64,000 nucleotides of DNA from Emiliania huxleyi CCMP1516 (lineage: Eukaryota). Made by a program: the position numbers and the translations under genes. Shown here piece by piece: positions 13,241-54,053 of the stretch (position 1 is the first letter of the stretch; every line of letters begins with the position of its first letter). The stretch covers positions 29,683 to 93,682 of the forward strand of contig NW_005201851.1 of the NCBI RefSeq assembly GCF_000372725.1, in the 5' to 3' direction. Under the pieces are notes generated by a model. It made no database searches. It was given only the letters and a program-made list of their open reading frames with translations, and was not told where the DNA came from.

Positions 13241-13519
13241 GAGGGCGGGGAGGGCGGTCTGGGCTCTGAGCACCCAGAAGCCTCGACCTGGAAATTCTTT
13301 TTCTCGCGATGTGGAAACCCTCCGGTGTGTGCCCCACCGAGTTTTTGGGTGAGACAAGGCCCGACATTGAAGAAAGGCGCGAAATGTCCCCAAATTCTTT
13401 GTCGCGAGATAACATATGTCCCCCCCCCCCCCCCCCCCGGGGAAGGGGGGGCTCCCCGCCCCTGCCCCGCGCCGCCGTCTCGCGCCGCCTGGCGACTGCC
13501 TCGCGTTTCACAGGCTCCT

Positions 13520-20599: not shown

Positions 20600-21950
<1,351 letters not shown>

Positions 21951-22209
21951 TCGCTGCAAGGCGCGCCCGACGCAGCCCGTGAATTGCGCCATACGGCTCT
22001 AGGAGCGACCTCCATGGGGGCCCAATTGTGAACTGACATTTGATACGCAAATTTGATACTCGTCGGACATTTGATTTTTCGGTTTGCGCCCCCTCGAGCC
22101 GGGTTTGAGCTTGGGGTTCACACCCGGCCACAACAAAGGAGTAGGCATATCGTCTGGCAAGCGCGCAGTAGGGCGTGTGACTGTGTAGAGAGAGCAGCAA
22201 GTGGCGAGA

Positions 22210-23220: not shown

Positions 23221-23333
23221 CGCGAGGAAAAGAATTTTTTCGTGTTTGCTTGGAAAGAAAGAACAGCGGGGCGCCTCTCTCCCCTCGACCCTGCACCCAC
23301 TGGCCTCTCGCTCGCTGCAACATTGCCACCGCC

Positions 23334-30794: not shown

Positions 30795-30877
30795 GTGTAC
30801 CTGTGTTAGTGCCAGTGCGCGCCAGTCCGTGCCCGTGTCGTGCGAGGGAGCTTTGTTCTTTATGTTGTAAAATTCTT
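30795..30877 (+). mobile_element. Short 3'-terminal copy of the retroelement at 43351-44010
   Basis: GTGTACCTGTGTTAGTGCCAGTGCGCGCCAGTCC is identical to the reverse complement of the repeat unit in 43351-43665, and ends in TAAAATTCTT. Confidence 0.7.
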
Positions 30878-33457: not shown

Positions 33458-33531
33458 GCTGTCAGAACGCTGTCAGAACGCTGTCAGAACGCTGTCAGAA
33501 CGCTGTCAGAACGGCGAGGTCTCTGTCAGAA
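33458..33531. repeat. 11-bp tandem repeat (GCTGTCAGAAC) x about 5
   Basis: Directly visible in the sequence. Confidence 0.85.
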
Positions 33532-34916
33532 CAGGTGCGGGAGCTCCACATCTGTCTAGATTCATCGCAGGCGAGCCGCGTGGAGTAGCCCCGCCGCGCC
33601 ACGTTCTGCCGCGCCACGTTCTGCCCGAAGCTGCTGCGCGAAGCTGCATGGGCCGCGAGGAAGGACGCGAAGAAGGGGAGGACGATGTGCAGCAGGTGAA
33701 AGTTGGGCGCGCGCTCGTCGCCCGTGCGGACACGAAGGATCACGTTCACGCATGCCGACGCGCAAGCGCAGTATCCCACTGCGAGTAGCTTGCGGGTCGG
33801 AGGGAGGGCAGAGGGTGGCAGAGCTCCGAAAGCGGCGCCGGTCGCTGTAGCCATCGTGATTACGCAACGCCCAATGCCTGCGAGCTTGTCGAGGTCACGG
33901 GCCATCGCTTCCGGCGAGCGGACAAGGACTCTGACAAGACGCAGAGTCGGGGCGCACACGAGAACCAGGGTCATCGCGCGCGCAAGAAAGCGAGGCGAGG
34001 CATGTGCCAGGTTGGCGAGGGCCAGCAATCCAAAGCCCGCGGCAGCGAGCAGGCCGGAGGGGTTGGTGGTGTCGAGCTCGGCGAGACGAGCGGCGAACAT
34101 CACCGCGAGGGCGAGCGACAGCTGGACCGGCTTGTACTGTGCCACGTCCAGACGCAGTGGGATGCGCATGGCCGGCGGCGAAGGCGGCATGGAGGGCGGC
34201 GGCACGCTTGCCCCCGGAGTCGGGCGCTTCTGCAGCAGCGGCGGTGTCGCGGAGCCAGAGAGAAGCAAATCGTCGAAGGGGCTGCCGCAGTGGGGCGTCG
34301 CCCCTTCTGGGGGTGGCGGCGCCGGGGCGGGAGCGAGCGGCGCCGGCGTGGGAGCGAGTGCGCGCCGCATCTCGTCGATGACCACCTTCATCGGCCACGA
34401 CAGCGCCGCATGCCCTCCCGCCACCGCTCCATCCCCTCCTTCCGCCGCACAGTCACTCGGCAGACGCGGCGGTGCGAGAGGACGCGCCGGCACACCAATC
34501 GCTCTCGCCGCCCACGGGTGCGCGCTCCCCAGCAGCTCCCCGCGCGCGCTCGTGAGCTCCCGGAGGATGGCCACTTTGTGCGCGAGGAGCGCATCCTCTG
34601 CCGCGAGCGGCGGGAGGACGCACTGCGTCAGAGGGTAGCCTGTAGGGAGGCCTGCGAGGAGCGGCTGCGCGGGAAAGGGCTCGCTCGGGCCGCCGCGCTC
34701 AAGGTCCAAGAGCGGCGGCGCTGAGTTGGCCGGCTGGACGGACATGTTCATGCACTTGCGCGAGCGGCAAATCTTCTTTCGGAGGCCCTTCCCACCAAAC
34801 TCGACCTTTTCGAGGCACTCCCTGCAATGGCCACAGTTCTGCTTGAGCAAGCAGGCCGCGCACGCGCGACAGCGCGCCCTGCGATTACTGGTAGTCGAGG
34901 CTGAGCGCTTGACCAT
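33495..34916 (-). CDS. CXXC zinc-finger protein with a C-terminal multi-pass hydrophobic domain
   Basis: RCRACAACLLKQNCGHCRECLEKVEFGGKGLRKKICRSRKC fits the zf-CXXC spacing. A Pro-rich linker leads to about 5-6 hydrophobic segments. The start may be upstream at 35102. Confidence 0.8.
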   Translation of the reverse strand: MVKRSASTTSNRRARCRACAACLLKQNCGHCRECLEKVEFGGKGLRKKICRSRKCMNMSVQPANSAPPLLDLERGGPSEPFPAQPLLAGLPTGYPLTQCVLPPLAAEDALLAHKVAILRELTSARGELLGSAHPWAARAIGVPARPLAPPRLPSDCAAEGGDGAVAGGHAALSWPMKVVIDEMRRALAPTPAPLAPAPAPPPPEGATPHCGSPFDDLLLSGSATPPLLQKRPTPGASVPPPSMPPSPPAMRIPLRLDVAQYKPVQLSLALAVMFAARLAELDTTNPSGLLAAAGFGLLALANLAHASPRFLARAMTLVLVCAPTLRLVRVLVRSPEAMARDLDKLAGIGRCVITMATATGAAFGALPPSALPPTRKLLAVGYCACASACVNVILRVRTGDERAPNFHLLHIVLPFFASFLAAHAASRSSFGQNVARQNVARRGYSTRLACDESRQMWSSRTCSDRDLAVLTAF

Positions 34917-35456
34917 CTCGCCGGCTTCGCCTTCGTGCAGCAAGCGTGCAGTCGGACCCCCGGGGGTACAACTGTATTGAGCGGTTCGTCCGCGTCGCGC
35001 ACTCGTCCTAGACTCGTCCCTGCCTGCGGCGAGGAAATGACTCACACCTAGTGGATCCATCCATGGTGAAATACCACCATTTTCGTACCTCAGATAATTC
35101 ATACTCTCAGCGGCAGAGAGTCTGCTGTGGACAGCTGACAGGGGTCAGGGCGCCTTAGAATTGTTTCGTTGAGAAGACGGTCATCATTTTTTGAAGACGC
35201 TGTGTTGCACTGAGTTGCACTGGGACAGGGTCGATCCGCTTGGTTCGGGGCTTCGGGCCCCCTCGATTGTCCCGCCCTCCCTCGCTGAGGTGTCAGTGTA
35301 CTTCTACTTGGGCCGCCCGCTCACAATTGTGGTTTACATTGTTCATGGACGGTCACTTTGCGCGTCACTGGCGGGGGCGGTGCGTCCCGAGCTGGGCAGC
35401 TAGGTGGACGATCGGTTGCGTCATAACCCACTCCACGGGCACGCTGTCGGCCGGCC

Positions 35457-38400
35457 TCACCCCGTGAACACGTAGCCTCCCGTTTCTGCTGCGTACCACT
35501 CAATGGGCGTCTTGCTCGCCAGCCCGTCCCACGCCGGCCAGCCGCCCCGCCTGTCCAGCGCGCACGCCTCGCAGGCGCAGCCCGCCTCGTGCACGCGCTT
35601 AATCTTGCCCGCGAAGCGAGGCATCCCGCAGTTGTTGAGGCCGGGGTACTCGTAGGTCAGGATGGTGCCTAGAAGAGAAAGCTGCGCATGCGAACAAGAG
35701 GCAACAGTGTGACGGGGTACTCGTAGTCAGGATGGTGCCGGTCGGCAGCCTGCGGCTGTGGGCCGAGATGTCGAAGAGCGAGCCTGTTCGCAGCTGGACG
35801 TGTGTGAAGAGACGCTGTTCACAGCAGCCCCTGGGTTAGCGGCGTCGAAGAGCGAGCCGTATTCGACGGTCGAGACGACGACGCTGTCCTTGCCCGGCAC
35901 CTGGGCTCACCGACAGCAATAACTAAGGTCCCATAGATGTCGCGCACCATGCCTCAGGCATCTGCCCTCGCGCCTGTCCGATCACCTTGCACACGCCCGA
36001 GTAGAACCGCTTCACCTTGAGCAGCCCCTCCTGCCTGCCGGGCCGGAAGCTCGGCCTAAACAAAGAAACACGCGCAGTAAAACAAAACGCCCGCAAGCAG
36101 CAATGGGCCGGCAATCCCAGCCTCGAGTCCCGCAGGATTAGGCCCTCGCCGCCGAGAGCCTCTGCGCGCGTCAGCAGCCTCCCCACCGCCGCCGCGTCCT
36201 CGCACGGCACCGCCGAGACCACCTACACGCGCGCCGCCGCCGGAAAAATCTCGGGCAATCTCCGGCCGACCTCGGGCGATCTCCGAACGATCTCGACCTC
36301 GGGTGATCGGGCGATGTTCGGCTGGTCTCCGGGTGCATCTCCGGGCAATCTCCGACAATCTCGGGGCGATCTCGAGGCGATCTCCAAGGCCCCCGCCTGC
36401 ACGCGCGCCGTCGGGAAGCCGGCAAGCGCGCGCCGCGCCGCATCGAGCCGCTCCAGCAGCCCGCCGGCGGCAGAGGGCGCGTCGAAGACCTTGAAGGCGA
36501 TGCTCTCCCAGTGGCCCCGCATGAAGGCGCCGCACTCGTCCCACCTGTTCACAGCGGAAGGTGTGAAGAGACGCCGTTCACACCATCGGCACGGGTGCCC
36601 ACCCCCCTCGTCTCACCGCCCTCGCCCCGCCCACAGCTCGCCGTCGAGCCGCAAGCCGCACCTGTTCACAGCTGCAGGTGTGAAGAGACGCCGTTCACAG
36701 CTCGCCGTCGAGCCGCAAGCCGCACCCGAGCAGCGCGTCTCGCATCTCCGCGTTGCTGCACTTCCACGTGCGCACGCCGCCCTTGGTGCGGAAGCCGCAC
36801 TCGCCGCCGATGTCTGGCTCCCACATGGCGCGGATGCCGTCGTACTTTTCCATCGCGACGTACCCCTGCAGGTCGATATCCCGCCGCTCCGGCTTCCAGT
36901 ACCCCCTCCACGCATCCTTGGCCGCCTCGGCAAAGACGTCTCCGCCGCCGCGCTCCTGCGGGCCCGCGTTCTTCCACGAGCTCTCCTAGCGACCTCGAGC
37001 AATCTCGAGTAATCTCGGGGGTTCTCGAGTCATCTCGGGCGATCTCGGGTACTCTCGGGTACTCTCGGGTACTCTGGGGTACTCTGGGGTACTCTGGGGG
37101 GACTCTCAGTGAGCACACCTTCGCGTCGGGCACGCGGCGAGGGATGGGGCGCGAGGCTGCGGGCTCGAGCGATGCGGCTGCGACGACGACGCACGAGCCG
37201 CTGTCGAGACGCACCTGTTCACAGCTGCAGGTGTGAAGAGACGCCTTCACACTCACAGAGCCGCTGCCGGCCTCCGCAGCGCCTTGAAGCTGCCGTCGGC
37301 CGCGCCGTCCTCGGCGGCCACGCCCAGCGCGCCCCCCCAGACCGGGTGCGCGTCTGTGGCGACGCGCACGCGCATTCCGCCGAGGAGGGCGTCGCCACCC
37401 ACCACGTCGGCGGCAAAGGGCTGGCAGACGCCCCAGCGAGGAGGACCGGAGGACGTCGCGCCATCCCCGGCGGCGGCGGCGGGTGGGGCAGCCGCAGCTG
37501 CGGCCGACGAGCCTCCTCCTCCTCCACCACCTCCTCCTCCGCCCCCGCCCCCCCTCCTGCCGCCGATGCCGCCGCCGCCGCCGCCGATGCCGCCGCCGCC
37601 CCTCCCTCCTGGCTGGGGCTGGGACCCGCCGGCCGAAGAGGCGGGGGAGTCGGGCTCGCGGGCTAGCGCCATGGCGTCAGGGTGCTGGTGCCTAGGGAAC
37701 AAAGAAAGGCGGTCCGGCACGGCTTCCTTTCAGGCGCCGCCACGCGAGTCGGTGTGGTGGTGCTTGCGCAGCACGTCCGTCCTCGCCCCGTCGGCAGAGA
37801 GGATCTTGGAGCACTGCCCGGCCCACTCCTGCGCGACGAGATGTGGGGAGATGTGGGGAGGTGTGGGGAGATGTGGGGAGATGTGGGGAGATACGGGGAG
37901 ATATGGGACCCCCTCCTGCGTGACGAGCCGCGGCCACTTGTCCTTCGGCAGGGTGGCCAGGAAGACTAGATCCTTAGCGCGGCGGGTCGACTCGAGGGAA
38001 ACGTGCGTCGCCTAATCAGTTGATTATCCCATCTCCAGCTACTTCGGTCAACGGCGGCGGGTCGACTCGAGTGCAGCGTGCGATCGCCTCGTGCACTCCG
38101 CCCACCACCGCCCCGCCGCCGCGCCGCACCACCTCCTCCTGCACCTGCTTGCGCAGCCGCGTCGCCACGAGGAGCCGCACGCCGCGGAAGATGGTCTGCC
38201 TCGTGCGCGGCTCCTCAGAGCACCACTCCGCCTCCTCCGCCTCCGCCTCCGCCTCCGCCTCCGCCTCCGCCTCCGCCCCCCCCACCCCCGCCTCCGCCCC
38301 CGCCCCCGTCCGCTCCCCCGCCCGCGGCTGCGCCCGCCTCTCCGCCCGCCCCGCTGCCGCGGCTGAGTGCGCGGCGGGCGGAGGCGCGGCGATGGCGCAG

Positions 38401-41400
38401 AGCCCTCCCTGCCCCGGCCCACACGCGCGCTCAAAGGCGGCCACATTGCCCGCATCCGACCCCTTCGGCTCGAGGATGGCAAAGGCAACCTGCGCGAACG
38501 CGCCGCGGAACTCGCCCGAGGCGAGCGCCGCGGCGAAGAGGGGCGCCACCTTGTTCACGGCTGGAGGTGAAAAGAGAGATCGCTCACACACCGCGCACCG
38601 CGGCGAAGGGGGGGAGGGGGCGAGGTGTCAGGGAGAGAGTCTAAGGGGTGGCCTACCCGATGGCGGTCCGCCCTCCACCCACCTCCCCGCGCGGAGCCGC
38701 TCCGGGGCGACCCGAGCGCCCTGCGACCAACCCGCGTCCCTACGATCTTTCAACAGCAGAGAGCAGGGCGGCGCCACCTTGTCGGGCGGGTTGCCAAACG
38801 CGCCGCAACCAAAGGCGCCGAGCACGAGGCCATCGCACCTACGTTAGTTGATTACAATCTGAATTGAGACTGCCCCTCAGTTCCTCTCCGAGCTCGAGGC
38901 CGTCCGCTCCTCTGCTCTCTCGCCGCGTGCAGCACGGCCCGCAGCCGCGCGCGCACCGTCGCCTCCCACGCCTCCGAGCCCGCGACCAGACTCGAGCGGC
39001 CTCGCCCGCCGCGGAGGTTTGGCATCGCCGCAGAGACGACGTCGACGAGGAGGGGCGGGTGCCTGCGCGGGAGAGATGGGGAGAGATGGGGAGAGGTGGG
39101 GAGAGGTGGGGAGAGATGGGGAGAGGTGGGGAGATGTGGGGAGGGAGGGGTGGGGGCCGCCTGCGCGGTGCATACGCCGGCATCGGGGCGGGAGGACGGT
39201 CTTGTGCAGAGTCTCCCCAGCACCGCGCGAGTACGAGGGCTGCAAATACAGTGAATACCGCTGAGAGGTGGGGAGCGGGCACAGCAGAGGGCGTGTCCTC
39301 AAGAGCGCGGGCTGGACTACACTGCTTGCTTCTAGATCGGGTGCTCGAGCGCGTACGATCCGGCAGAGCGGCAGAGCAGCGTCTGCGTGTAGAAGGCGAC
39401 ACGCTCCCCCATCGGGTACCGCAGCCGCAGCAGCGACGGGTGCAGCCGCGGCATCAGCCGGCACAAGTCCTCCTCCTACGAACTAGCGGTGAACGAACGG
39501 ATCAACAATGAACCAAGTAGGTTCGGTACCGGCACACGTCCTCCTCCTGCGCGCGCGCGCCCGTCAGGTAGCCTCCGCCGGCGTGGTGCGCCTATGAGAC
39601 CGCGCGACTCGCCACTCCCACTCTCTCTCTCACGAGCCAGCCAGCCTCCGCCCCTCTGTGCGTTCGCAAAGTGCATCTCCGGGCAATCTCCGGCAATCTC
39701 GGGGCGATCTCGAGGCGATCTCGCGTTCGCAAAGTTGAGCGCGGCGACGCGCCCCGAGCCGACCCGCGCAGTCATCAGCCGCAGCGCCGTCGCCGTGTCC
39801 ACGCGAGCCACGCACACTCTCGTCGAGCCGTGCCGCGGCGGGAGCGGCCGCCTGTTCACAGCTCGAGGTGTGAACAGCGCCTCCTCACGGGCCGTCGCAT
39901 CATGCGGCGGCGGCAAGTCCGCCCTGCGCTTGCGGGCGCGGCGATCGCGCGGTTGACGGCGCCTCGCGGCAGCGCCAAGCTGTGCTCCTGGCCGGCGGCG
40001 TCGGTGTACCGCCCCGCCTCGACGAGCCGGCCTGTTCACAGCCTTCTTTTCCTCGGGGGGGGCGTCGCGTGTTTTTTTCCCCAACCGCCTCGACGAGCCG
40101 GCCGTTCTCGGCGGCGATTCGAGCGAGCTGCGCCTTGTCCCGCAACCGTCAACAGACAAGTAACTATTGGCTAAATGCCCTGTTAACCCTCCATGAGGAA
40201 CCCTCCTCAACACTCGTAGCTGCGTCAGCTACTCAGCCACTCACTCTCGCTGCGCCTTGTCCCGCACAGCAGCGCCGCGGACTGCCGCCTCCTCCAGCTC
40301 GCGCCGCAGCACGCCGTCCCACACGAAAGCATGCGCCGCCCTCGCCGACGAAGCCTCGCCCCCGCCACAACCCCCGCCGCAGCCCCCGCCGCAGCCCCCG
40401 CCGCAGCCCCCGCCGCCACCGCCGCCGTCACCCCTGCCGCCACCGCCACCACCGCCGCCGTCGTTAGAGGAGGAGGCGCCGGCGCCGCCGAGGTAGCAGG
40501 CCACCAAAGCGCCGCCGCTGCGGCTCTGAGACGGCGGGGAAACGAGGCCCTAAGAAAACGAAACACAAGAGACTGCTGTGAAGAGGGTCTCCGTGGTGCG
40601 CTGGGGAGCAGGCGCCGTGTCGCGCCTATGAATGAGAAAAGAAACATGCGTGCCAAAGAGTCAAAGTGGTGCGCTGGGGAGCAGGCGCCGTGTCGCGCCT
40701 CCGGGCCGCCGCCGCCGCCGCCGGCCGTAAGGCACGCGACTAAGGCCCTGGCCGCCGCCGACGGTGCCTCCGAGGCAACAGCCGCCGCGGCAGCACCCTC
40801 CGCCTCCGCCGCTTCCCCTGCCGCTTCCTCCGCCGCAGCCGCCAAACGGCTGCCTCCTCCGCTGCTGCCACCTAGCTGCGGCTGTTGCTGTTGCGGCTGC
40901 TGCTGCTGCTGCTGCTGCTGCTGCAACGGCTGCTGCTGCAGTGGTTGCTGCGGCGGCGGCGGCTGCTGCTGCTCTGCCCCGGCCGCCGGCTCGAACCGGT
41001 ACACGAGCAGCCCGCAAGAATGCTCCCGGCCTCTGCTCTCCGCCTACGCACTCGCTCGATCAATGAGAGCGATGGACCGAGCAGCGAGATGCACCCCGCC
41101 CGCTCCTCACCGCCGCCGCCGCCCCCTCCTCCATCCGCCACCACTCGCCTCCTCCTTCCTCGGCGTCCGCGTCCGCGGCGGCGCGCCCCTGCTGCAGCAG
41201 CCGGCGGGCGAGCAGCTTGACGAACCGACTTTTAGGCGGGTGGATGCCTGATGAAATGTTTAATGGTCATTAGACTGTCAACGGCGGCGGGTTGGCTTGG
41301 GCGGGTGGATGCCTGATGAAGTGTTTGATTACTCCTTCATTACGTCAGTCAACGGCGGCGGGTTGGCTTGGGCGGGTGGATGCCTGATGAAGTGTGTAAT

Positions 41401-42527
41401 GGTCCTTAGACTGTCAACGGCGGCGGGTTGGCGTGGGCGGGCGGATGTCTGATGAAGTGTGTAATGGTCAGCAGACTGTCAACGGCGGCGGGTTGGCTTG
41501 GGCGGGCGGATGCCTGATGAAGTGTGTAATGGTCAGCAGACTGTCAACGGCGGCGGGTTGGCTTGGGCGGGCGGACGCCGATGCGGGGCCTGGCGCCACC
41601 GGAGCACCGCTGCACCGCGTCGCCCTTCCGCCACGGAGGCGCCACCGCCCTCGCCGCCGGCCACCTGGTTCATAGATGCGAACGCCTCGGTCCGTCGAGT
41701 TCACCTCACTCGGGGCCACAGCCCTCGCCGCCGCCCCACCACTCCATCAGGTCGACCTCCTGCGGCTCGCCTGTTCACACCCCAGAGCTGTGAAGAGAGG
41801 CTCCCGCTCACCACTCGATCACGCCCACCCGGCACACCCGGCCGCGTGCGCGCTAAAGAGCGTCCTCCGCCGCTCGCCTCGGCGAGCCCCTCCCATGCCT
41901 CCGCCGCGAAGGCGCGAAGTGTCTTTGCGCCGCTGCTGTTGCACATGCCGACGCCCAAGTCCACACACCCCTCCAGCGAGGCGGGCGGCACGCACAGGCC
42001 CGTCTCCTAAGACACGAAACACTCGGACGCGTGCAAGAAGGCGCGGATCTCAGGGCACGGCACACCGACTCCCCGTCTCCTCGGCAAACTCGCGTACAGC
42101 CGCCGCCAGCTCGCTGCCGTCGCTCGCCTGCTGGCCGAGATTGGCCGAGATCAGCGCCCAGATTGGCCGAGATTGGCCAGCTCGCCGCGCCCCCCCTCGC
42201 ATGGATGTGCCCTTCGGCAAATCTCGGCAACTCTCGGCAACTCTCGGCTGCCTCTCGGCGCATCTCGGCGCCTCTCGGCGCATCTCGGCTCATCTCGGCC
42301 TCCTCTCGGCTCATCTCGGCGCAACTCGGCGCATCTCGGCGCATCTCGGCGCAACTCGGCGCATCTCGGCGCATCTCGGCGCATCTCGGCCTCCTCTCGG
42401 CGCCTCTCGGCTCCTCTCGCCTCGAGGTGTCCCTTGGGGAAGCCCCAGAGCCCGCTCTGTGCACCGTACCAGTCGGCATCTCCCCTCCCCGCCGGCACCG
42501 CTGTGCGCACCACGAGCACTTGCAGCC

Positions 42528-42559
<32 letters not shown>

Positions 42560-43292
42560 TGCGTCTGCAGTGGCGGCGGCTGCCGCTGCGGCGGCGGCGG
42601 CGGCTGCGGTGGCGGCGGCTGTGCTGGCGGCGGCGCACGGCTGGCAAGCTGCTGTTTGGGCTCGGCCTCCGCCTCTGCGCCTCCCGCCGGCTCGGCAGCG
42701 GCCGCAGCGCGACCGCCGTCGGCGGGGAGAGGCACCAGCCACGCCTATGAATCATTAAGTGCCGTTTAAAATGAAGACGCCGCCGTCGGTTGTGGAAGAG
42801 AGGTCGTCATGCCATCTTCTTGGCGGCGGCGGCGGCGGAGCCGCCTCCGTGCGTTTCTTGGCCGCTGTCGTCGAAGCGGAGGGTCCAACCGCACCACCCG
42901 CGGACGTGCTCGTCCGCCAGCGCCGCGCGCGCCTCCTCCGCGTTCCGCCAGGACGCAAACAGCAGCGGCGCGTCCGCCGCCTCACCGGGAAGAGAAAACG
43001 GGGCGTTGCCCTGGTCTGGCTCGACACGGACCGCAACGTCGCGCGCTAGTTGGCGGCCGTTGAGGTAGGTCCGATTCGTCGCCGAGAGGTGCGTGGCGTA
43101 GACGGCGCCGGCCGCGTCTCGCTCGAGCCGGATGTGCTGCCTCGAGAGATGCGGATTGCACGGCGCAGTGACATCACCCTCGCGGCCGATGACGACCGTC
43201 GGACTGCAGAGCGGGACGGGAGCTCCGCACAGCGGGTTGTGAGGCACGAGAACACCCCACGGATCGTCCTGCTCGCGATCGCGCTTCGGCAT
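35457..43292 (-). CDS. Multidomain DNA-repair protein: FHA - NUDIX - polyQ - microbial-type PARG (TIGR02452/DUF2263-like macrodomain) - BRCT - ATP-dependent DNA ligase plus OB fold; many introns
   Basis: FHA: VIGRE, LSRQH, SATNRTYLNG. NUDIX: WGFPKGHLE/DGSELAAAVREFAEETG. PARG: ALNFANA..GGGYLTGARAQEEDLCR, VDVVSAAMPNL, LGAFGCGAFGNPP. BRCT: IFRGVRLLV..GGAV..ATHV..LVTQEW. Ligase: MEKYDGIRAMW, LDGELW, FKVFDAP, GEGLILRD, LLKVK, TYEYPGLNNCGMPRF. Confidence 0.8.
41236..41572. repeat. Intronic tandem repeat of about 65 bp, 5 units (2 units in the paralogous copy at 52236-52372)
   Basis: Unit GGATGCCTGATGAAGTGTGTAATGGTCAGCAGACTGTCAACGGCGGCGGGTTGGCTTGGGCGGGC. Confidence 0.9.
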
Positions 43293-43350: not shown

Positions 43351-44010
43351 AGAAACCCACACTGGGCACGGGACTGGCGCGCACTGGCACTAACACAGGT
43401 ACACCACGGGAGCCGCCTAAGCGACTCCCGCGAGGAAAAAGAATTTTAGAATGACAAACTCCGTCGCACAACACTGTGGGCACGGGACTGGCGCGCACTG
43501 GCACTAACACAGGTACACCACGGGAGCCGCCTAAGCGACTCCCGCGAGGAAAAAGAATTTTAGAATGACAAACTCCGTCGCACAACACTGTGGGCACGGG
43601 ACTGGCGCGCACTGGCACTAACACAGGTACACCACTGGAGCCGCCTAAGCGACTCCTGCGAGAGTGGCGAGGCACTTAGCTCCGTGCACCCGCCCACCCC
43701 CGCCACAGGCAAGCTCATTCACAGCCTGCTCTGCGATTGCCGTGTGAAGAACGACTGAGATACGCTGCTTCTGCAGCCCCAGCCAATTCTTTGTGGTGTC
43801 CAAGTCACCTCATCGAGGTACTGGGCCCGCGTCAGCTTGTTCTGCAGCACGTTCGCCGCCTTCCGGAGGATCTCACGGACCCCCTTTCCGAACCCGCCGA
43901 ACGATTCGAACAGCAACAGCTGCACTTCAACGCCCTTGTCTTCCCTGGCGTAGCGATAGTCCCCGCCGTAGGACGGTATGCGGCGGTCGCCGCCCACCAC
44001 AGGGAGTGCC
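43351..44010 (-). mobile_element. 3' fragment of a CRE-like, RLE-type non-LTR retrotransposon with a triplicated 3' end of about 114 bp
   Basis: GDYRYAREDKGVEVQLLLFESFGGFGKGVREILRKAA...(frameshift) KNWLGLQKQRISVVLHTAIA. The 3' unit is repeated 3 times and each unit ends in TAAAATTCTTTTT. Confidence 0.65.
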
Positions 44011-44016
44011 CCGACT

Positions 44017-44140
44017 AGCAGTGACGGGCGCGGACGAGCGAATGAGAGGTCGCTATCGGAGATGCGTTATTAGAGACTAGGGCTGCCTATCTCGCACTGA
44101 AAGGGACCTCTCATTCGCTCGTCCGCACCCGTCACCGCTC
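44017..44140. mobile_element. Small MITE-like inverted-repeat element
   Basis: GTGACGGGCGCGGACGAGCGAATGAGAGGTC pairs with GACCTCTCATTCGCTCGTCCGCACCCGTCAC. Confidence 0.7.
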
Positions 44141-45452: not shown

Positions 45453-46925
45453 GGAAAACAAGAAATTCGACGCCGGGAGTCGGCTGCGGTCGAGTCAGAG
45501 AGAGGCCGAGAGCCAAGTGGGAGAGCTGGCTCACGGCGAAGTGTCTGCAGCGGCCCACGTAGCATCCTCGAGGCTCCGTCTCTGGGCGCCAGCGAACGCG
45601 AGCAGTTGCAGCCGCCGCTGCGACCGGCGTGTGCTGGCCCTGACGAGCGGTCTTCGCCGCGGCTCAGTGTCGACCCACACACTCTCTGGCACGGCGAGGC
45701 GCACAGCGGACTGCTCGCCGCCGCACTCAGGCGGCCGACGGCCCTCCACCCCCCTCTCGCCCGACCCTCACACCGTCCGACGCCCGCCACAGGCGCCACT
45801 GCTCAATAAGCCGCCGCCGCTCTCCCCGTCGCGCTCGCCTTCAGGGAGGAGATTCGACGCCAAGCTCGAGGCACTGCGGCGGGGCGTGCTGCTCTCCGCG
45901 CTCGCGCTTTGACTACGGCGCGGAGCGACCGGTTTCGCCGACGAATGCGTCACACACACATACACATGGACGATCACCCGTCTGTCGGTGCTAGTCTCTG
46001 TCGGTGTCGCGTTTCGTAAAATGAGCCGGGAAGAGCTTTTGACGACGGAGTCTGTGAGCTCTGTGTAGTCCGGCCCAATCGTCTTGTCTTGCGAGCGAGC
46101 GGACCCACACAGAGACATGAATGGCAATCACACGGAATCTCACACACGTGTGGCTGTCAGCTGTCACGTGTCACGAGCCCGAACTCGCTCTGCCTCTGTG
46201 TGTCCTCTCGAGCGCACATCAACGTGTGCGGACGGGCAGCCCCGGCTTTTGCAGTCCCGAGTCAGCACACTCAGGCAGAGCGACTGTGTACGACGGGGGC
46301 GCAGCACAGCGGCGGCCGCCCCACTCGAGAGAGGCACGACCGCCGCTGTGCTGCCCGGCGCGTGCCAACGGAGTGGGCGGCGGGCGGCGGCGCGGCACGC
46401 AGGGGCAGCTCATGTGTGTGTGGGTGTGTGGGTGGTGCGTGTGGGTCTAACCTCGGGTGATCTCGCGCAGGACTCGTCCCGAGCTTCGCGCGCCTCATCT
46501 CGGTGATCTCGGCTGATCTCGGCTGATCTCGCGCATGGGGACTGATCTCGGGTAATCTCGGGTAATCTCGGCTCATCGAGCTCGGGTAATCTCGGCTATC
46601 ACGATCTCGGGTAATCTCAGCTCATCACAGTCTCGGGTAATCTCGCGTCATCTCGGCTCATCGCGATCTCGGGGATCTCGGCAGATCTCGGCGCGTACAA
46701 GACACTGACCGCACTGCTCGCGCCGTCTCTCGGCGCCATCTCTCACCCCGCTCGCGGACACGCCGTTGGCTGTTGATCTCGATGCATCAAGACGATCTCG
46801 AGCAATCTCGGCGAACCTCGGCGAACATCGACAGGTCTCGGCTAATCTCGCTCCACGGACGAGGCGACTACTGATTAATTAACTAATTCGAGGGGCTATC
46901 AGCCAATCGATGAATCCATATCTCT

Positions 46926-47470
46926 GTGAGCGGGAGAGAGGGGAGGGGAGAGGAGAGAGGGGAGGAGGAGGAGAGGCGAGGAGAAGCGAGGCGAGGCGAG
47001 GAGAGGCGAGGAGAGGAGAAGAGAGGCGAGGCGAGGAGAGGAGAAGCGAGGAGAGGAGAGGCGAGGAGAGGAGAAGAGAGGAGAGGCGAGGCGAGGAGAG
47101 GAGAGGCGAGGAGGAGGAGAGGAGAGGAGAGGCGAGGCGAGGAGAGGAGAGGAGAAGAGAGGCGAGGCGAGGAGAGGAGAGGCGAGGCGAGGCGAGGAGA
47201 GGAGAGGAGAAGAGAGGCGAGGCGAGGAGAGGAGAAGAGAGGCGAGGCGAGGAGAGGAGAGGCGAGGCGAGGAGAGGAGAGGCGAGGAGAGGCGAGGCGA
47301 GGAGAAGCGAGGAGAGGCGAGGAGAGGAGAGGAGAGGCGAGGCGAGGAGAGGAGAAGCGAGGCGAGGAGAGGCGAGGAGAGGAGAGGAGAGGAGAGGCGA
47401 GGAGAGGCGAGGAGAGGAGAAGAGAGGCGAGGCGAGGAGAGGAGAAGAGAGGCGAGGCGAGGAGAGGAGA
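46926..47470. repeat. Purine-rich pentamer satellite (GAGAG/GCGAG/AGAAG)n
   Basis: Directly visible; preceded by degenerate ATCTCGG repeats at 46450-46850. Confidence 0.95.
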
Positions 47471-47473
47471 ATC

Positions 47474-50400
47474 CTAGCGACCTCGAGCAATCTCGAGTAA
47501 TCTCGGGGGTTCTCGAGTCATCTCGGGCGATCTCGGGTACTCTCGGGTACTCTGGGGTACTCTGGGGTACTCTGGGGGGACTCTCAGTGAGCACACCTTC
47601 GCGTCGGGCACGCGGCGAGGGATGGGGCGCGAGGCTGCGGGCTCGAGCGATGCGGCTGCGACGACGACGCACGAGCCGCTGTCGAGATGCACCTGTTCAC
47701 AGCTGCAGGTGTGAAGAGACGCCGTTCACACTCACAGAGCCGCTGCCGGCCTCCGCAACGCCTTGAAGCTGCCGTCGGCCGCGCCGTCCTCAGCGGCCAC
47801 GCCCAGCGCGCCCCCCCAGACCGGGTGCGCGTCTGTGGCGACGCGCACGCGCATTCCGCCGAGGAGGGCGTCGCCACCCACCACGTCGGCGGCAAAGGGC
47901 TGGCAGACGCCCCAGCGAGGAGGACCGGAGGAGGTCGCGCCATCCCCGGCGGCGGCGGCGGGTGGGGCAGCCGCCGCTGCGGCCGACGAGCCTCCTCCTC
48001 CTCCACCACCTCCTCCTCCGCCCCCGCCCCCCCTCCTGCCGCCGATGCCGCCGCCGCCGCCGCCGATGCCGCCGCCGCCCCTCCCTCCTGGCTGGGGCTG
48101 GGACCCGCCGGCCGAAGAGGCGGGGGAGTCGGGCTCGCGGGCTAGCGCCAGGGCGTCGGGGTGCTGGTGCCTAGGGAACAAAGAAAGGCGGTCCGGCACG
48201 GCTTCCTTTTAGGCGCCGCCACGCGAGTCGGGGTGGTGGTGCTTGCGCAGCACGTCCGTCCTCGCCCCGTCGGCAGAGAGGATCTTGGAGCACTGCCCGA
48301 CCCACTCCTGCGCGACGAGATGTGGGGAGATGTGGGGAGGTGTGGGGAGATGTGGGGAGATATGGGGAGATACGGGGAGATATGGGACCCCTCCTGCGCG
48401 ACGAGATATGGGGAGATGTGGGGAGATGTGGGGAGATAGGGGGAGATGTGGGGAGATATGGGGAGATGTGGGGAGGTGTGGGGAGATATGGGGAGATGTG
48501 GGGAGATATGGGGAGATATGGGGAGATGTGGGAAGGTGTGGGGAGATGTGGGGAAATATGGGGAGATGTGGGGAGGTGTGGGGAGATATGGGGAGATGTG
48601 GGGAGTCTGCTGCGGAGATATGGGGAGATGTGGGGAGGTGTGGGGAGATGTGGGGAGGTGTGGGGAGAGATGGGGAGATGTGGGGAGTCTGCTGCGGAGA
48701 TATGGGACCCCGCTCCTGCGTGACGAGCCGCGGCCACTTGTCCTTCGGCAGGGTGGCCAGGAAGACCAGATCCTTAGCGCGGCGGGGCGACTCGAGTGAA
48801 ACGTGCGTCGCCTAATCAGTTGATTAACCCATCTCCAGGTACTCGGTCAACGGCGGCGGGTCGACTCGAGTGCAGCGTGCGATCGCCTCGTGCACTCCGC
48901 CCACCACCGCCCCGCCGCCGCGCCGCACCACCTCCTCCTGCACCTGCTTGCGCAGCCGCGTCGCCACGAGGAGCCGCACGCCGCGGAAGATGGTCTGCCT
49001 CGTGCGCGGCTCCTCAGAGCACCACTCCGCCTCCTCCGCCTCCGCCTCCGCCTCCGCCTCCGCCCCCCCCACCCCCGCCTCCGCCCCCCCCACCCCCGCC
49101 TCCGCCCCCGCCCCCGTCCGCTCCCCCGCCCGCGGCTGCGCCCGCCTCTCCGCCCGCCCCGCTGCCGCGGCCGAGTGCGCGGCGGGCGGAGGCGCGGCGA
49201 TGGCGCAGAGCCCTCCCTGCCCCGGCCCACACGCGCGCTCAAAGGCGGCCACATTGCCCGCATCCGACCCCTTCGGCTCGAGGATGGCAAAGGCAACCTG
49301 CGCGAACGCGCCGCGGAACTCGCCCGAGGCGAGCGCCGCGGCGAAGAGGGGCGCCACCTTGTGTCACGGCTGGAGGTGAAAAGAGAGATCGCTCACACAC
49401 CGCGCACCGCGGCGAAGGGGGGGAGGGGGCGAGGTGTCAGGGAGAGAGTCTAAGGGGTGGCCTACCCGATGGCGGTCCGCCCTCCACCCACCTCCCCGCG
49501 CGGAGCCGCTCCGGGGCGACCCGAGCGCCCTGCGACCAACCCGCGTCCCTACGATCTTTCAACAGCAGAGAGCAGGGCGGCGCCACCTTGTCGGGCGGGT
49601 TGCCAAACGCGCCGCAACCAAAGGCGCCGAGCACGAGGCCATCGCACCTACGTTAGTTGATTACAATCTGAATTGAGACTGCCCCTCAGTTCCTCTCCGA
49701 GCTCGAGGCCGTCGCACCTATTAATGAATCACAATGTTGATTAATCCTGTCCATCAGTTCATCTCCGAGCTCGAGGCCGTCCGCTCCTCTGCTCTCTCGC
49801 CGCGTGCAGCACGGCCCGCAGCCGCGCGCGCACCGTCGCCTCCCACGCCTCCGAGCCCGCGACCAGACTCGAGCGGCCTCGCCCGCCGCGGAGGTTTGGC
49901 ATCGCCGCAGAGACGACGTCGACGAGGAGGGGCGGGTGCCTGCGCGGGAGAGGTGGGGAGGGGTGGGGAGGGGTGGGGAGGGGTGGGGAGGGGTGGGGAG
50001 GGGTGGGGAGGTGTGGGGAGGTGTGGGGAGGTGTGGGGAGGTGTGGGGAGGTGTGGGGAGAGGTGGGGAGAGGTGGGGAGAGGTGGGGAGAGGTGGGGAG
50101 AGGTAGGCAGAGGTGGGGAGAGGTGGGGAGAGATGGGGAGAGATGGGGAGAGATGGGGAGAGGGGGGGAGAGATGGGGTGATGTGGGGAGATGTGGGGAG
50201 GGAGGGGTGGGGGCCGCCTGCGCGGTGCATACGCCGGCATCGGGGCGGGAGGACGGTCTTGTGCAGAGTCTCCACAGTACCGCGTGAGCACGAGGGCTGC
50301 AAATACAGTGAATACCGCTGAGAGGTGGGGAGCGGGCACAGCAGAGGGCGTGTCCTCAAGAGCGCGGGCTGGACTACAAGACTACGTACACTGCTTGCTT

Positions 50401-53400
50401 CTAGATCGGGTGCTCGAGAGCGTACGATCCGGCAGAGCGGCAGAGCAACGTCTGCGTGTAGAAGGCGACACGCTCCCCCATCGGGTAGCGCAGCCGCAGC
50501 AGCGACGGGTGCAGCCGCGGCATCAGCCGGCACAAGTCCTCCTCCTACGAACTAGCGGTGAACGAACGGATCAACAATGAACAAGTAGGTTCGGTACCGG
50601 CACAGGTCCTCCTCCTGCGCGCGCGCGCCCGTCAGGTAGCCTCCGCCGGCGTGGTGCGCCTATGAGACCGCGCGACTCGCCACTCCCACTCCCTCTCTCA
50701 CGAGCCAGCCTCCCTCCGCCCCTTTGTGCACGTTCGCAAAGTTGAGCGCGGCGACGCGCCCCGAGCCGACCCGCGCAGTCATCAGCCGCAGCGCCGTCGC
50801 CGTGTCCACGCGAGCCACGCACACTCTCGTCGAGCCGTGCCGCGGCGGGAGCGGCCGCCTGTTCACAGCTCGAGGTGTGAACAGCGCCTCCTCACGGGCC
50901 GTCGCATCATGCGGCGGCGGCAAGTCCGCCCTGCGCTTGCGGGCGCGGCGATCGCGCGGTTGACGGCGCCTCGCGGCAGCGCCAAGCTGTGCTCCTGGCC
51001 GGCGGCGTCGGTGTACCGCCCCGCCTCGACGAGCCGGCCTGTTCACAGCCTTCTTTTCCTCGGGGGGGGCGTCGCGTGTTTTTTTCCCCAACCGCCTCGA
51101 CGAGCCGGCCGTTCTCGGCGGCGATTCGAGCGAGCTGCGCCTTGTCCCGCAACCGTCAACAGACAAGTAACTATTGGCTAAATGCCCTGTTAACCCTCCA
51201 TGAGGAACCCTCCTCAACACTCGTAGCTGCGTCAGCTACTCAGCCACTAACTCTCGCTGCGCCTTGTCCCGCACAGAAGCGCCGCGGACTGCCGCCTCCT
51301 CCAGCTCGCGCCGCAGCACGCCGTCCCACACGAAAGCATGCGCCGCCCTCGCCGACGAAGCCTCGCCCCCGCCACAACCCCCGCCGCAGCCCCCGCCGCA
51401 GCCCCCGCCGCCGCCCCCGCCGTCACCCCTGCCGCCACCGCCACCACCGCCGCCGTCGTTAGAGGAGGAGGCGCCGGCGCCGCCGAGGTAGCAGGCCACC
51501 AAAGCACCGCCGCTGCGGCTCTGAGACGGCGGGGAAGCGAAGCCCTAAGAAAACGAAACACAAGAGACTGCTGTGAAGAGGGTCTCCGTGGTGCGCTGGG
51601 GAGCAGGCGCCGTGTCGCGCCTATGAATGAGAAAAGAAACATGCCTGCCAAAGAGTCAAAATGGTGCGCTGGGGAGCAGGCGCCGTGTCGCGCCTCCGGG
51701 CCGCCGCCGCCGCCGCCGGCCGTAAGGCACGCGACTAAGGCCCTGGCCGCCGCCGACGGTGCCTCCGAGGCAACAGCCGCCGCGGCAGCACCCTCCGCCT
51801 CCGCCGCTTCCTCCGCCGCTTCCTTCGCCGCAGCCGCCAAACGGCTGCCTCCTCCGCTGCTGCCACCTAGCTGCGGCTGCGGCTGTTGCGGCTGCTGCTG
51901 CTGCTGCTGCTGCTGCTGCAGCGGCTGCTGCTGCAGTGGTTGCTGCGGCGGCGGCGGCGGCGGCTGCTGCTGCTCTGCCCCGGCCGCCGGCTCGAACCGG
52001 TACACGAGCAGCCCGCAAGAGTGCTCCCGGCCTCTGCTCTCCGCCTACGCACTCGCTCGATCAATGAGAGCGATGGACCGAGCAGCGAGATGCACCCCGC
52101 CCGCTCCTCACCGCCGCCGCCCCCCCCTCCTCCAACCGCCACCACTCGCCTCCTCCTTCCTCGGCGTCCGCGTCCGCGGCGGCGCGCCCCTGCTGCAGCA
52201 GCCGGCGGGCGAGCAGCTTGACGAACCGACTTTTGGGCGGATGGATGCCTGATGAAGTGTGTAATGGTCAGCAGACTGTCAACGGCGGCGGGTTGGCTTG
52301 GGCGGGCGGATGCCTGATGAAGTGTGTAATGGTCCTTAGACTGTCAACGGCGGCGGGTTGGCTTGGGCGGGCGGACGCCGATGCGGGGCCTGGCGCCACC
52401 GGAGCACCGCTGCACCGCGTCGCCCTTCCGCCACGGAGGCGCCACCGCCCTCGCCGCCGGCCACCTGGTTCATAGATGCGAACGCTTCAGTCCGTCGAGT
52501 TCACCTCACTCGGGGCCACAGCCCTCGCCGCCGCCCCACCACTCCATCAGGTCGACCTCCTGCGGCTCGCCTGTTCACACCCCAGAGCTGTGAAGAGAGG
52601 CTCCCGCTCACCACTCGATCACGCCCACCCGGCACACCCGGCCGCGTGCGCGCTAAAGAGCGTCCTCCGCCGCTCGCCTCGGCGAGCCCCTCCCATGCCT
52701 CCGCCGCGAAGGCGCGAAGTGTCTTTGCGCCGCTGCTGTTGCACATGCCGACGCCCAAGTCCACACACCCCTCCAGCGAGGCGGGCGGCACGCACAGGCC
52801 CGTCTCCTAAGACACGAAACACTCGGACGCGTGCAAGAAGGCGCGGATCTCAGGGTACGGCACACCGACTCCCCGTCTCCTCGGCAAACTCGCGTACAGC
52901 CGCCGCCAGCTCGCTGCCGTCGCTCGCCTGCTGGCCGAGATTGGCCGAGATCAGCGCCCAGATTGGCCGAGATTGGCCAGCTCGCCGCGCCCCCCTCGCA
53001 TGGATGTGCCCTTCGGCAAATCTCGGCAACTCTCGGCAACTCTCGGCTGCCTCTCGGCGCATCTCGGCGCCTCTCGGCGCCTCTCGGCTCATCTCGGCCT
53101 CCTCTCGGCTCATCTCGGCGCAACTCGGCGCATCTCGGCGCATCTCGGCGCAACTCGGCGCATCTCGGCGCATCTCGGCGCATCTCGGCCTCCTCTCGGC
53201 GCCTCTCGGCTCCTCTCGCCTCGAGGTGTCCCTTGGGGAAGCCCCAGAGCCCGCTCTGTGCACCGTACCAGTCGGCATCTCCCCTCCCCGCCGGCACCGC
53301 TGTGCGCACCACGAGCACTTGCAGCCGCGACAGCGGCGGCGGCAGCCGCTGCGGCGGCGGCGGCGGCTGCGGTGGCGGCGGCTGCAGTGGTGGCGGCGCA

Positions 53401-54053
53401 CGGCTGGCAATCTGCTGTTTGGGCTCGGCCTCCGCCTCTGCGCCTCCCGCCGGCTCGGCAGCGGCCGCAGCGCGACCGCCGTCGGCGGGGAGAGGCACCA
53501 GCCACGCCTATGAATTATTAAGCAAGCCCTTTAAAATGAAGACGCCGCCGTCGGTTGTGGAAGAGGGTCGTCATGCCATCTTCTTGGCGGCGGCGGCGGC
53601 AGAGCCACCTCCGCGCGTCTCCTGGCCGCTGTCGTCGAAGCGGAGAGTCCAACCGCACCACCCGCGGACGTGCTCGTCCGCCAGCGCCGCGCGCGCCTCC
53701 TCCGCGTTCCGCCAGGACGCAAACAGCAGCGGCGCGTCCGCCGCCTCACCGGGAAGAGAAAACGGTGCGTTGCCCTGGTCTGGCTCGACACGGACCGCAA
53801 CGTCGCGCGCTAGTTGGCGGCCGTTGAGGTAGGTCCGATTCGTCGCCGAGAGGTGCGTGACGTAGACGGCGCCGGCCGCGTCTCGCTCGAGCCGGATGTG
53901 CTTCCTCGAGAGATGCGGATTGCACGGCGCAGTGACGTCACCCTCGCGGCCGATGACGACCGTCGGACTGCAGAGCGGGACGGGAGCTCCGCACAGCGGG
54001 TTGTGAGGCACGAGAACTCCCCACCGATCGTGCTCGCGATCGCGCTTCGGCAT
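47474..54053 (-). pseudogene. Second copy of the FHA-NUDIX-PARG-BRCT gene, lacking all ligase exons
   Basis: Near-identical to 36985-43292. Homology ends exactly at the TAG acceptor before the first ligase exon, where the satellite begins. Confidence 0.8.

What the first reader, a model, noticed from the sequence alone, without database searches (positions are those of the whole stretch)
35457..43292. Candidate single-chain enzyme that removes ADP-ribose and ligates: FHA-NUDIX-PARG-BRCT-DNA ligase
Seen: signature motifs of five domains lie in order on one strand. I could chain exons in frame from BRCT into the ligase (VLRK|HQHPD...VRLDSG...PDAK|ESSWKN...EKYDG). Known: TIGR02452-type macrodomains hydrolyse poly(ADP-ribose), some NUDIX enzymes cleave ADP-ribose, FHA and BRCT recruit repair factors to breaks, and the ligase is of the minimal bacterial/viral ATP-dependent type. 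Inference: one protein that clears ADP-ribose from proteins or DNA ends, disposes of free ADP-ribose and seals the nick. I know of no described protein with this architecture.
Basis: partly seen in the sequence, partly recalled or inferred. Interest (0 to 1): 0.92.

Follow-up and report, generated by a model that had tools for sequence, protein, structure and literature searches.

The report
Algal ADP-ribose eraser fused to ligase
An expressed gene of the bloom alga Emiliania huxleyi carries an ADP-ribose-removing enzyme domain, a Nudix hydrolase domain and a DNA ligase domain in a row, likely as one protein that would strip ADP-ribose from broken DNA and then seal the break, a pairing known in bacteria only as separate neighbouring genes.

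Summary
The minus strand 43292-35457 is an expressed Emiliania huxleyi gene.

Of 28 introns, 12 are seen in RNA contigs from 3-4 studies. Four more, predicted beforehand, are read across by a database protein. The spliced PARG matches a bacterial profile end to end (168 bits) with its catalytic motif intact.

No contig spans the gene. The FHA-Nudix and Nudix-PARG joins rest on splice signals, frame conservation and paralogues. Public models start a ligase-only protein at Met1171. One chain: about 80%.

Most likely job (inferred): remove ADP-ribose from DNA ends or nearby poly(ADP-ribose), then ligate. The closest precedent is the Deinococcus ligB-PARG-kinase operon, which is three separate genes. 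I found no PARG-ligase fusion among 69 long relatives or in my paper searches. The Nudix first strand lies downstream of its core, a possible circular permutation. A tandem copy lacks the ligase. No activity was tested.

The parts
35457..43292 (-). Whole gene, 29-exon model, 1544 aa, ATG 43292, stop 35457-35459; intron donors GC 17, GT 7, GA 4, all acceptors AG
   Evidence: Model built by coordinates; 12 of 28 introns in RNA contigs, 4 more read across by P0061; donor mix close to the published E. huxleyi 56/40/4% (PMC4028052 passage)
42858..43265 (-). FHA domain with a conserved C-terminal extension (aa 10-145); Gly-Arg36-37, Ser50, His53 and Asn73 present (phosphothreonine-binding positions recalled, not from a call)
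   Evidence: Pfam FHA E 2.7e-7; 54-66% identical to the 9 hits; motif positions
41631..42531 (-). Nudix hydrolase core (aa 232-362, exons 2-6), box split by introns 2 and 3; RE..EE intact, Asp for the first box Glu and one extra residue
   Evidence: Pfam NUDIX E 0.005 on exon 3; local profiles of 66 and 44 bacterial Nudix proteins score 31.6 and 41.3 bits
40993..41022 (-). Displaced Nudix first-strand-like segment (aa 433-442), downstream of the core: possible circular permutation or relic of a duplication
   Evidence: Best match in the whole model to the family's first-strand profile, 22.8 against 13.9 for the next; 1 of 1000 shuffles reaches it; same ORF as the core in P0061; no amino-acid change in three other copies, not significant alone
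38424..40282 (-). Microbial-type PARG macrodomain (aa 630-899, exons 9-17) with GGG-X7-QEE (aa 732-744) and the GAFGCGAF loop (aa 844-851)
   Evidence: 168 bits over positions 12-288 of 292 of a 30-sequence bacterial profile; Pfam and TIGR02452 pieces; PDB hits are only D. radiodurans and T. curvata PARG entries
37676..38225 (-). BRCT-like module (aa 966-1070), shared with paralogues at 65-82% identity
   Evidence: BLAST to paralogues; Atlas feature search of the paralogue module 0.90 to a BRCT cluster, 8 of 10 best named hits agree; no Pfam hit, weak local profile and hhalign scores, failed fold
37143..37411 (-).
   Evidence: Conserved before the ligase in 5 relatives and in P0011-P0016; in the model of relative P0063 it has pLDDT about 96 and matches DSIF KOW6-7 at Z 10.2, rmsd 1.4, 60 aligned, and NdhS at Z 9.0
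35592..36901 (-). ATP-dependent DNA ligase, nucleotidyltransferase plus OB-2 (aa 1262-1500), Lig E type; KYDG at aa 1280, with LDGELW, FKVFD, EGLILR, LLKVK and PRF motifs
   Evidence: PRK09125 E 2.7e-26 on P0075; profile hits Lig E structures E 4e-35 to 8e-32, Chlorella virus ligase 5e-6; Foldseek 6gdr TMt 0.83, rmsd 2.7; P0209 99.7% identical without gaps to aa 1171-1544
35562..35591 (-). His-x4-Cys-x-Cys-x2-Cys tail motif (aa 1501-1510), predicted zinc site
   Evidence: 23 of the 33 sequences of the ligase's clade carry it, none outside among 155; metal binding is inference
47472..54053 (-). Tandem second copy (exons 1-21, 95-97% identical) ending 2 nt past the acceptor of the first ligase exon in a (GGAGA)n microsatellite: lacks the ligase
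   Evidence: Self-BLAST, projection without frameshift or stop, repeat array 46933-47470

Best explanation
This expressed E. huxleyi gene likely makes one 1544-residue chain in which an intact-looking microbial PARG would remove ADP-ribose from DNA break ends or nearby poly(ADP-ribose), a Lig E-type ligase would then seal the freed nick, and FHA and BRCT-like modules would dock it at damage sites. Shown: the domains, their order, the catalytic motifs, expression and 16 of 28 splice junctions. Inferred: the remaining joins, every activity, and the coupling. The Nudix domain most likely hydrolyses the released ADP-ribose or decaps a blocked 5' end (weakest step). The gene looks like an FHA-BRCT-like scaffold, found without these enzymes in paralogues, that gained Nudix and PARG internally and a KOW-ligase cassette at its end.
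For: RNA joints for introns 15, 17, 19-28 in 3-4 of 4 runs from 4 studies; one 1500-nt contig runs from 37499 through the ligase. P0061 reads across introns 4-7 exactly as modelled before it was fetched (then 42, 45). The spliced PARG is in register across 8 introns. Exon indels in three other copies are 9 of 9 multiples of three against 3 of 22 in introns. Folded domains show 22 silent and 10 replacement codons against 35 and 44 in linkers (copies share changes). Paralogues hold FHA, BRCT-like module and ligase in one ORF (P0003, P0006, and P0021 on a 2463-nt contig). Nudix and PARG have no Met upstream of their domains except in exon 1 and Met418. 31 of 69 long ligase relatives carry PBZ, BRCT, WGR or WWE. 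Bacterial-type PARGs remove ADP-ribose from 5'-phosphate ends, and D. radiodurans PARG shares a damage-induced operon with a ligase (PMC11833690 Discussion; PMC6300522 passage).
Against: No contig spans the stretch; all break in the Gly-rich (37500-37610) and Ala/Glu-rich (38221-38337) repeats. RNA was laid only on 35200-39075, so introns 1-13 have no RNA joint from me. Introns 1 and 8, which join FHA to Nudix and Nudix to PARG, rest on splice signals and comparison only. Intron 16, inside the PARG, is retained in contigs of 2 of 4 runs, which would truncate the protein. Database models start a ligase-only protein at Met1171 (P0010, P0037, P0209) and relatives exist as free KOW-ligase proteins (P0014, P0063). 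No protein with this FHA exon and more than 280 residues was returned. No PARG-ligase fusion outside this alga was found. BRCT identity is weak. Exon indels fall mostly in codon repeats, where multiples of three are expected anyway.
Confidence: 0.55

Rival explanations
1. One chain, but a young product of domain shuffling whose enzymes work independently (or some not at all); the fusion says little about a coupled pathway.
For: The same FHA-BRCT-like scaffold occurs with a different ligase (P0003, 33% identical core) or with none (P0001, P0004); a 55-57% identical FHA sits in LINE-type polyproteins (P0029, P0033); the closest ligase is fused to Pol X instead (P0011); a tandem copy has lost the ligase; the Nudix is rearranged; no orthologue outside this lineage among 69 long relatives.
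Against: All catalytic motifs are intact, replacements are depleted in the domains, the layout is kept in a relative 80-86% identical over exons 7-10 (L002), and every domain belongs to one theme, DNA-break signalling and repair.
Confidence: 0.18
2. Two products: an FHA-Nudix-PARG-BRCT protein (from the ligase-less copy or by early termination) and a separate KOW-ligase protein started inside exon 20 at Met1072 or Met1171.
For: Ligase-only models and transcript-derived proteins begin at Met1171; ligase contigs stop at 37434-37499; copy 2 supplies the upstream half alone; free KOW-ligase relatives exist.
Against: Exon 20 is one open frame whose 5' end is spliced to the BRCT-like exon in 3 of 4 runs; the break coincides with a repeat the tool reports as cut; homology to relatives extends upstream of Met1171 to aa 1150-1160; Met1072 is Leu in copy 2.
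Confidence: 0.14
3. One chain used in conflict rather than routine repair: it reverses ADP-ribosylation placed on nucleic acids by viral or bacterial transferases and reseals the strand.
For: Bacterial-type PARGs reverse toxin-made RNA ADP-ribosylation and protect cells (PMC11833690 passages); the gene family is duplicated and reshuffled, as defence genes often are (inference).
Against: FHA and BRCT-like modules point to host damage signalling; neighbours are ordinary nuclear genes; no viral sequence falls in the ligase clade, and 0 of 80 viral ligase loci hold a PARG.
Confidence: 0.07
4. A self-fuelling ligase: PARG releases ADP-ribose, the Nudix domain joins it with the pyrophosphate left by ligase adenylation to make ATP, and the ligase uses that ATP.
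For: The three catalytic domains are the three steps of the ATP-from-PAR model: PARG, then NUDIX5 plus PPi to ATP, first proposed for DNA repair ligation (PMC7354705 passage and reference list; primary papers not read).
Against: This Nudix resembles unnamed bacterial proteins; kinship to NUDT5 was not tested; NUDT5 works as a regulated homodimer; hydrolysis is the default Nudix reaction.
Confidence: 0.06

Closest known systems
Deinococcus radiodurans ligB operon (DR_B0100 ligase, DR_B0099 PARG, DR_B0098 kinase/phosphatase)
   Same: Microbial-type PARG placed with an ATP-dependent ligase for end repair; the PARG motif piece hits DrPARG structures best; PARG proposed as an aprataxin-like cleaner of ADP-ribose-blocked ends (PMC11833690)
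   Different: Three separate bacterial genes; a kinase/phosphatase instead of Nudix; no FHA, BRCT-like or KOW domain reported; here one spliced eukaryotic gene with a Lig E-type core
Lig E / NT-OB-2 (PF14743) minimal ATP-dependent DNA ligases, including WGR-bearing bacterial and long fungal forms
   Same: Core fold and motifs; WGR fusions are in print (PMC7470946 passages); PBZ, BRCT, WWE and Pol X fusions seen among relatives
   Different: Internal domain of a long protein rather than a periplasmic enzyme; own clade with KOW barrel and His/Cys3 tail; carries a predicted ADP-ribose eraser, where relatives carry only readers
Microbial PARG (DUF2263 / TIGR02452; T. curvata, D. radiodurans)
   Same: Whole domain and GGG-X6-8-QEE signature conserved
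   Different: Described as mostly single-domain; the extra domains listed for PARGs in PMC4245714 are PBZ, Nab2 zinc finger, G8, transmembrane and L32e, not ligase or Nudix; 0 of the bacterial PARG loci fetched held a Nudix or ligase by my profiles
Aprataxin / PNKP-type FHA end-processing factors (FHA architecture recalled; aprataxin role)
   Same: FHA plus an enzyme that unblocks a DNA end before ligation
   Different: Different catalytic folds; the ligase is a separate protein there
E. huxleyi FHA-BRCT-like-ligase paralogues (EMIHUDRAFT_109212, _220211) and KOW-ligase-Pol X protein P0011
   Same: Share the FHA and BRCT-like scaffold (62-68%), or the KOW-ligase cassette (54%)
   Different: Uncharacterised; lack Nudix and PARG

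Membership tests
Microbial PARG (TIGR02452/DUF2263) | Macrodomain with N-terminal helical extension over the full family length | tested here: met
   aa 630-899 match positions 12-288 of 292 of a 30-sequence profile, 168 bits
Microbial PARG (TIGR02452/DUF2263) | GGG-X6-8-QEE signature and G[AV][FY] loop | tested here: met
   GGG-X7-QEE at aa 732-744, GAF loop at aa 844-851 (motif definitions)
Microbial PARG (TIGR02452/DUF2263) | Hydrolysis of PAR or ADP-ribosylated phosphate ends | not testable with these tools
   Needs an assay
Lig E-type (NT-OB-2) ATP-dependent DNA ligase | Nucleotidyltransferase motifs with adenylated Lys and an OB-2 domain | tested here: met
   KYDG and later motifs; PRK09125 and PF14743 hits below curated cut-offs; best PDB matches are Lig E (fold from relative P0063)
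Lig E sensu stricto (bacterial periplasmic) | Stand-alone minimal enzyme with an N-terminal periplasmic signal | tested here: not met
   The ligase is preceded in frame by a KOW barrel and further exons
Nudix hydrolase | Nudix box with RE..EE metal ligands (consensus recalled) | tested here: met
   aa 265-287; one Glu-to-Asp change and one inserted residue against the bacterial profile; Pfam E 0.005
Nudix hydrolase | Complete fold in normal order, including the first strand | tested here: inconclusive
   The first-strand-like segment lies downstream at aa 433-442; aa 161-166 might serve instead; the spliced domain could not be folded
ADP-ribose pyrophosphatase (NUDT5/NUDT9/NudF-like) | Subfamily kinship and ADP-ribose specificity | not tested
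   Only unnamed bacterial Nudix proteins chosen by one box motif were compared
FHA domain | Profile match and phosphothreonine-binding residues | tested here: met
   Pfam 31.3 bits against cut-off 20.7; Arg37, Ser50, His53, Asn73 present (roles recalled)
BRCT domain | Profile or fold match | tested here: inconclusive
   No Pfam hit; local HMM 1.1 bits, hhalign probability 3%; fold failed, pLDDT 43; Atlas 0.90 to BRCT clusters for the paralogue
Deinococcus ligB end-repair system | Three-gene operon with HD-phosphatase/polynucleotide kinase | tested here: not met
   One spliced gene; no kinase or HD hit among 24 exon pieces

The most novel reading that the evidence does not exclude
The first single-chain ADP-ribose eraser-ligase, which also fuels itself: PARG frees ADP-ribose at the break, a circularly permuted Nudix turns it plus pyrophosphate into ATP (or decaps the blocked end directly), and the fused ligase seals the nick, making the debated ATP-from-poly(ADP-ribose) model testable in one purified protein.
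Probability: 0.08. Interest if true: 0.95.

Novelty: new variant of a known kind. Interest (0 to 1): 0.72.

Why it matters
ADP-ribosylation of DNA ends is well shown in vitro, but whether it is a lesion, a protective cap or a ligation intermediate in cells is open (PMC8385414 passages). A natural fusion of a PARG with a ligase would be genetic evidence that erasing and sealing are coupled, and one recombinant protein could test the order of steps, including the ATP-from-PAR idea. It also shows that public E. huxleyi models miss long GC/GA-donor genes (this one appears only as a 372-aa ligase), and it exposes an unstudied algal clade of Lig E-type ligases that swap repair modules.

Tried and rejected
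1. In-frame exon chaining as evidence: rejected; the antisense strand and 4 of 5 shuffles chain as well.
2. Whole own genome: none held, so no genome-wide search for PARPs or further copies.
3. RNA on the 5' half: not obtained; only 35200-39075 was laid. The one metagenome scan gave 2 contigs, both with introns, useful only for comparison.
4. BRCT proof: Pfam, a 12-sequence local profile, hhalign and AlphaFold (pLDDT 43, not searched further) all failed or were weak; the PDB profile search gave only weak FHA hits.
5. Similarity of the paralogue's post-FHA linker to aa 532-568: not significant, 174 and 268 of 500 shuffles reach it; dropped.
6. An extra 35-nt exon at 40624-40590: dropped; L002 has a plain 73-nt intron there.
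7. Bacterial PARG-Nudix or PARG-ligase precedent: none in loci L123-L165 from 5 + 201 + 201 genomes searched (1.5-kb flanks, rough profiles, a small sample).
8. Viral origin: none of the sampled viral ligases (every fourth motif-bearing ORF of 80 loci) falls in the clade; neighbours are ordinary nuclear genes.
9. Atlas search of the KOW barrel gave no usable hit.
10. RNA variants could not tell copy 2 from allelic variation: 2 of 10 match copy 2, one of them in a ligase-linked contig. Contig depth was not used to rank parts.
11. Earlier scan findings: nothing in 3 look-ups.
12. No complex prediction was run.
Full report
Verdict. The five-domain array is real, expressed and most likely one protein (about 80%). 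It has two more parts than reported. Its function is inferred, not shown.

Organism and context. The ligase exon is 92% identical to EMIHUDRAFT_195959 of Emiliania huxleyi, a 372-aa ligase-only model. Flanking genes are ordinary nuclear ones: myosin, F-box-RCC1, MAPEG, CXXC finger. A second copy, 95-97% identical, lies at 47472-54053 and stops 2 nt past the acceptor of the first ligase exon, in a microsatellite.

Gene model. I built 29 exons by coordinates: 1544 aa, no internal stop, donors GC 17, GT 7, GA 4, all acceptors AG. The published donor mix for this alga is 56/40/4%, with frequent intron retention (PMC4028052 passages). An open chain alone proves nothing: the same rules chain the antisense strand and 4 of 5 shuffles.

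RNA evidence, 3' half. Contigs of 4 runs from 4 studies (one on record as RNA, three guessed) were laid on 35200-39075 only. Ten joints match introns 15, 17, 19-21 and 24-28. An eleventh, with 14 letters between, equals introns 22 plus 23. Each is seen in 3 or 4 runs. These joints were in view when I set the 3' boundaries, so the match is not a blind test. P0209, a UniRef E. huxleyi protein, equals aa 1171-1544 at 99.7% without gaps. One 1500-nt contig runs from 37499 through the stop. No contig spans the stretch; they break in two low-complexity repeats inside exons 17 and 20. Introns 14, 16 and 18 have only indirect support (pieces end at their boundaries), and intron 16 is also retained in 2 of 4 runs.

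Evidence, 5' half. P0061, a 223-aa protein called on a 995-nt contig, reads across introns 4-7 as I had modelled them before fetching it. The spliced PARG (aa 630-899) aligns in register across 8 introns to a profile of 30 bacterial PARGs, 168 bits. The Nudix box is continuous across introns 2 and 3. Two genomic metagenome contigs (95% and 80-86% identical) and copy 2 keep the frame: 9 of 9 exon indels are multiples of three against 3 of 22 in introns, though most exon indels lie in codon repeats. Domains show 22 silent and 10 replacement codons, linkers 35 and 44 (the copies share changes). Introns 1 (68 nt) and 8 (149 nt; 73 nt in L002) carry the FHA-Nudix and Nudix-PARG joins and have no transcript support from my calls. 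They leave little room for a gene boundary (inference). Paralogues hold FHA, the BRCT-like module and a ligase in one ORF, which fits Nudix and PARG being insertions into one gene.

The weakest join is before the ligase. Public models start at Met1171, and free KOW-ligase relatives exist. Against a separate gene: exon 20 is one open frame, its 5' end is spliced to the BRCT-like exon in 3 of 4 runs, and homology runs upstream of Met1171.

Domains. FHA passes the Pfam cut-off. The PARG keeps GGG-X7-QEE and its second loop; both pieces hit only T. curvata and D. radiodurans PARG structures. The ligase keeps its motifs and is closest to Lig E by sequence and by the fold of relative P0063 (pLDDT 83). 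Before it sits a KOW/SH3-like barrel (Z 10.2, rmsd 1.4, 60 residues to DSIF KOW6-7). After it sits a His/Cys3 motif found in 23 of 33 members of a clade with support 1.0 and nowhere else among 155 rows. The named members of that clade are E. huxleyi and Prymnesium polylepis. The BRCT-like module is unproven but favoured by the Atlas at 0.90. The Nudix resembles bacterial proteins picked by one box motif. The segment matching their first strand lies about 70 residues after the core (1 of 1000 shuffles), and exons 2 and 8 resemble each other in their repeat-rich DNA (no control). Duplication with complementary loss would explain this; whether the domain folds as a permutation is untested.

Relatives. 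A profile search of 1.84 billion representatives listed the best 150 hits. I scanned the 69 new ones of 400-1199 aa and left out the 73 shorter and 4 of the longer repeat proteins. PBZ occurs in 13, BRCT in 12, WGR in 10, WWE in 1 (31 of 69 with any; three hits below cut-off), Pol X in 1; PARG, Nudix and FHA in 0. Those reader fusions lie outside the gene's own clade. So this ligase type is often tied to poly(ADP-ribose) signalling, but an eraser fusion was seen only here.

Mechanism. Shown in print for other proteins: PARPs modify DNA end phosphates and PARG reverses this (PMC8385414 passages); ADP-ribosylated gapped DNA can be ligated (PMC5843604 abstract); bacterial-type PARGs clean 5'-phosphate ends and one sits in a damage-induced operon with a ligase (PMC11833690 passages and Discussion; PMC6300522 passages). 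Inferred here: FHA and the BRCT-like module recruit the chain, the PARG restores a free 5'-phosphate or trims polymer, the Nudix removes the product, and the ligase seals. I put this at 0.55, uncoupled shuffling at 0.18, two products at 0.14, conflict defence at 0.07, and ATP generation from ADP-ribose (PMC7354705 passage) at 0.06.

Novelty. Searches (0 papers with all six terms; 1 paper, passages unrelated) found no description of a PARG-ligase protein. The library lacks most subscription papers and I read no supplements. PARG fusions listed in PMC4245714 (passages) do not include ligase or Nudix. PMC7470946 (passages and half of section 7) notes WGR fusions and long unstudied fungal ligases of this core. 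Passages of PMC7050489, PMC8120803, PMC9503650 and PMC4669402 gave motif definitions and a viral Pol X-ligase fusion only. All parts are known kinds and the pairing has an operon precedent, so I file it as a new variant. Interest 0.72.

Noticed in passing
window 35457-43292, introns: The first 12 bases of each intron resemble the first 12 of the next exon far more than chance (217 of 336 identical against a mean of 133; 0 of 10000 shuffles), and several introns end in the same short element. This suggests intron gain by local duplication or an introner-like insert.
   Followed up: partly
window 47472-54053: Tandem ligase-less copy with intact frame; if spliced as copy 1 it would end in a 196-aa microsatellite-encoded tail (ORF 46883-47473). 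Real duplicate, misplaced allele or assembly join is undecided.
   Followed up: partly
window about 43345 and 54105; L001 about 2390: Copy 1, copy 2 and the wild contig L001 all diverge at the same short A-rich word about 50 bases upstream of the ATG; in copy 1 a 114-bp tandem repeat follows (43363-43662), with a partial match near 30800.
   Followed up: no
proteins P0025, P0029, P0033 (cluster of P0007): An FHA domain 55-57% identical to this one sits in LINE-type polyproteins with endonuclease and reverse transcriptase domains; a possible carrier or captor of the module.
   Followed up: partly
proteins P0011/P0040 and P0148: Lig E-type ligase fused to a Pol X polymerase in one ORF; P0011 is the closest relative of this ligase (54%).
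   Followed up: partly
proteins P0098-P0206: Lig E-type ligases carrying PBZ, WWE, BRCT or WGR modules (31 of 69), including Mastigamoeba and Cymbomonas proteins; the PBZ and WWE fusions did not appear in the passages I read.
   Followed up: partly
proteins P0068, P0070, P0017: Other members of the His/Cys3 ligase clade carry a SAP-like helical domain in place of the KOW barrel (weak Pfam hits).
   Followed up: no
window 43719-44066 (-): A 115-aa frame that looks like the C-terminal end of a retroelement protein (recalled resemblance; no Pfam hit).
   Followed up: partly
window 13142-14941 (+) and 21937-23739 (-); 33495-35144 (-): Two F-box-RCC1 genes face each other around a myosin gene; a long single-frame CXXC zinc-finger gene lies just downstream of the ligase gene.
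   Followed up: no
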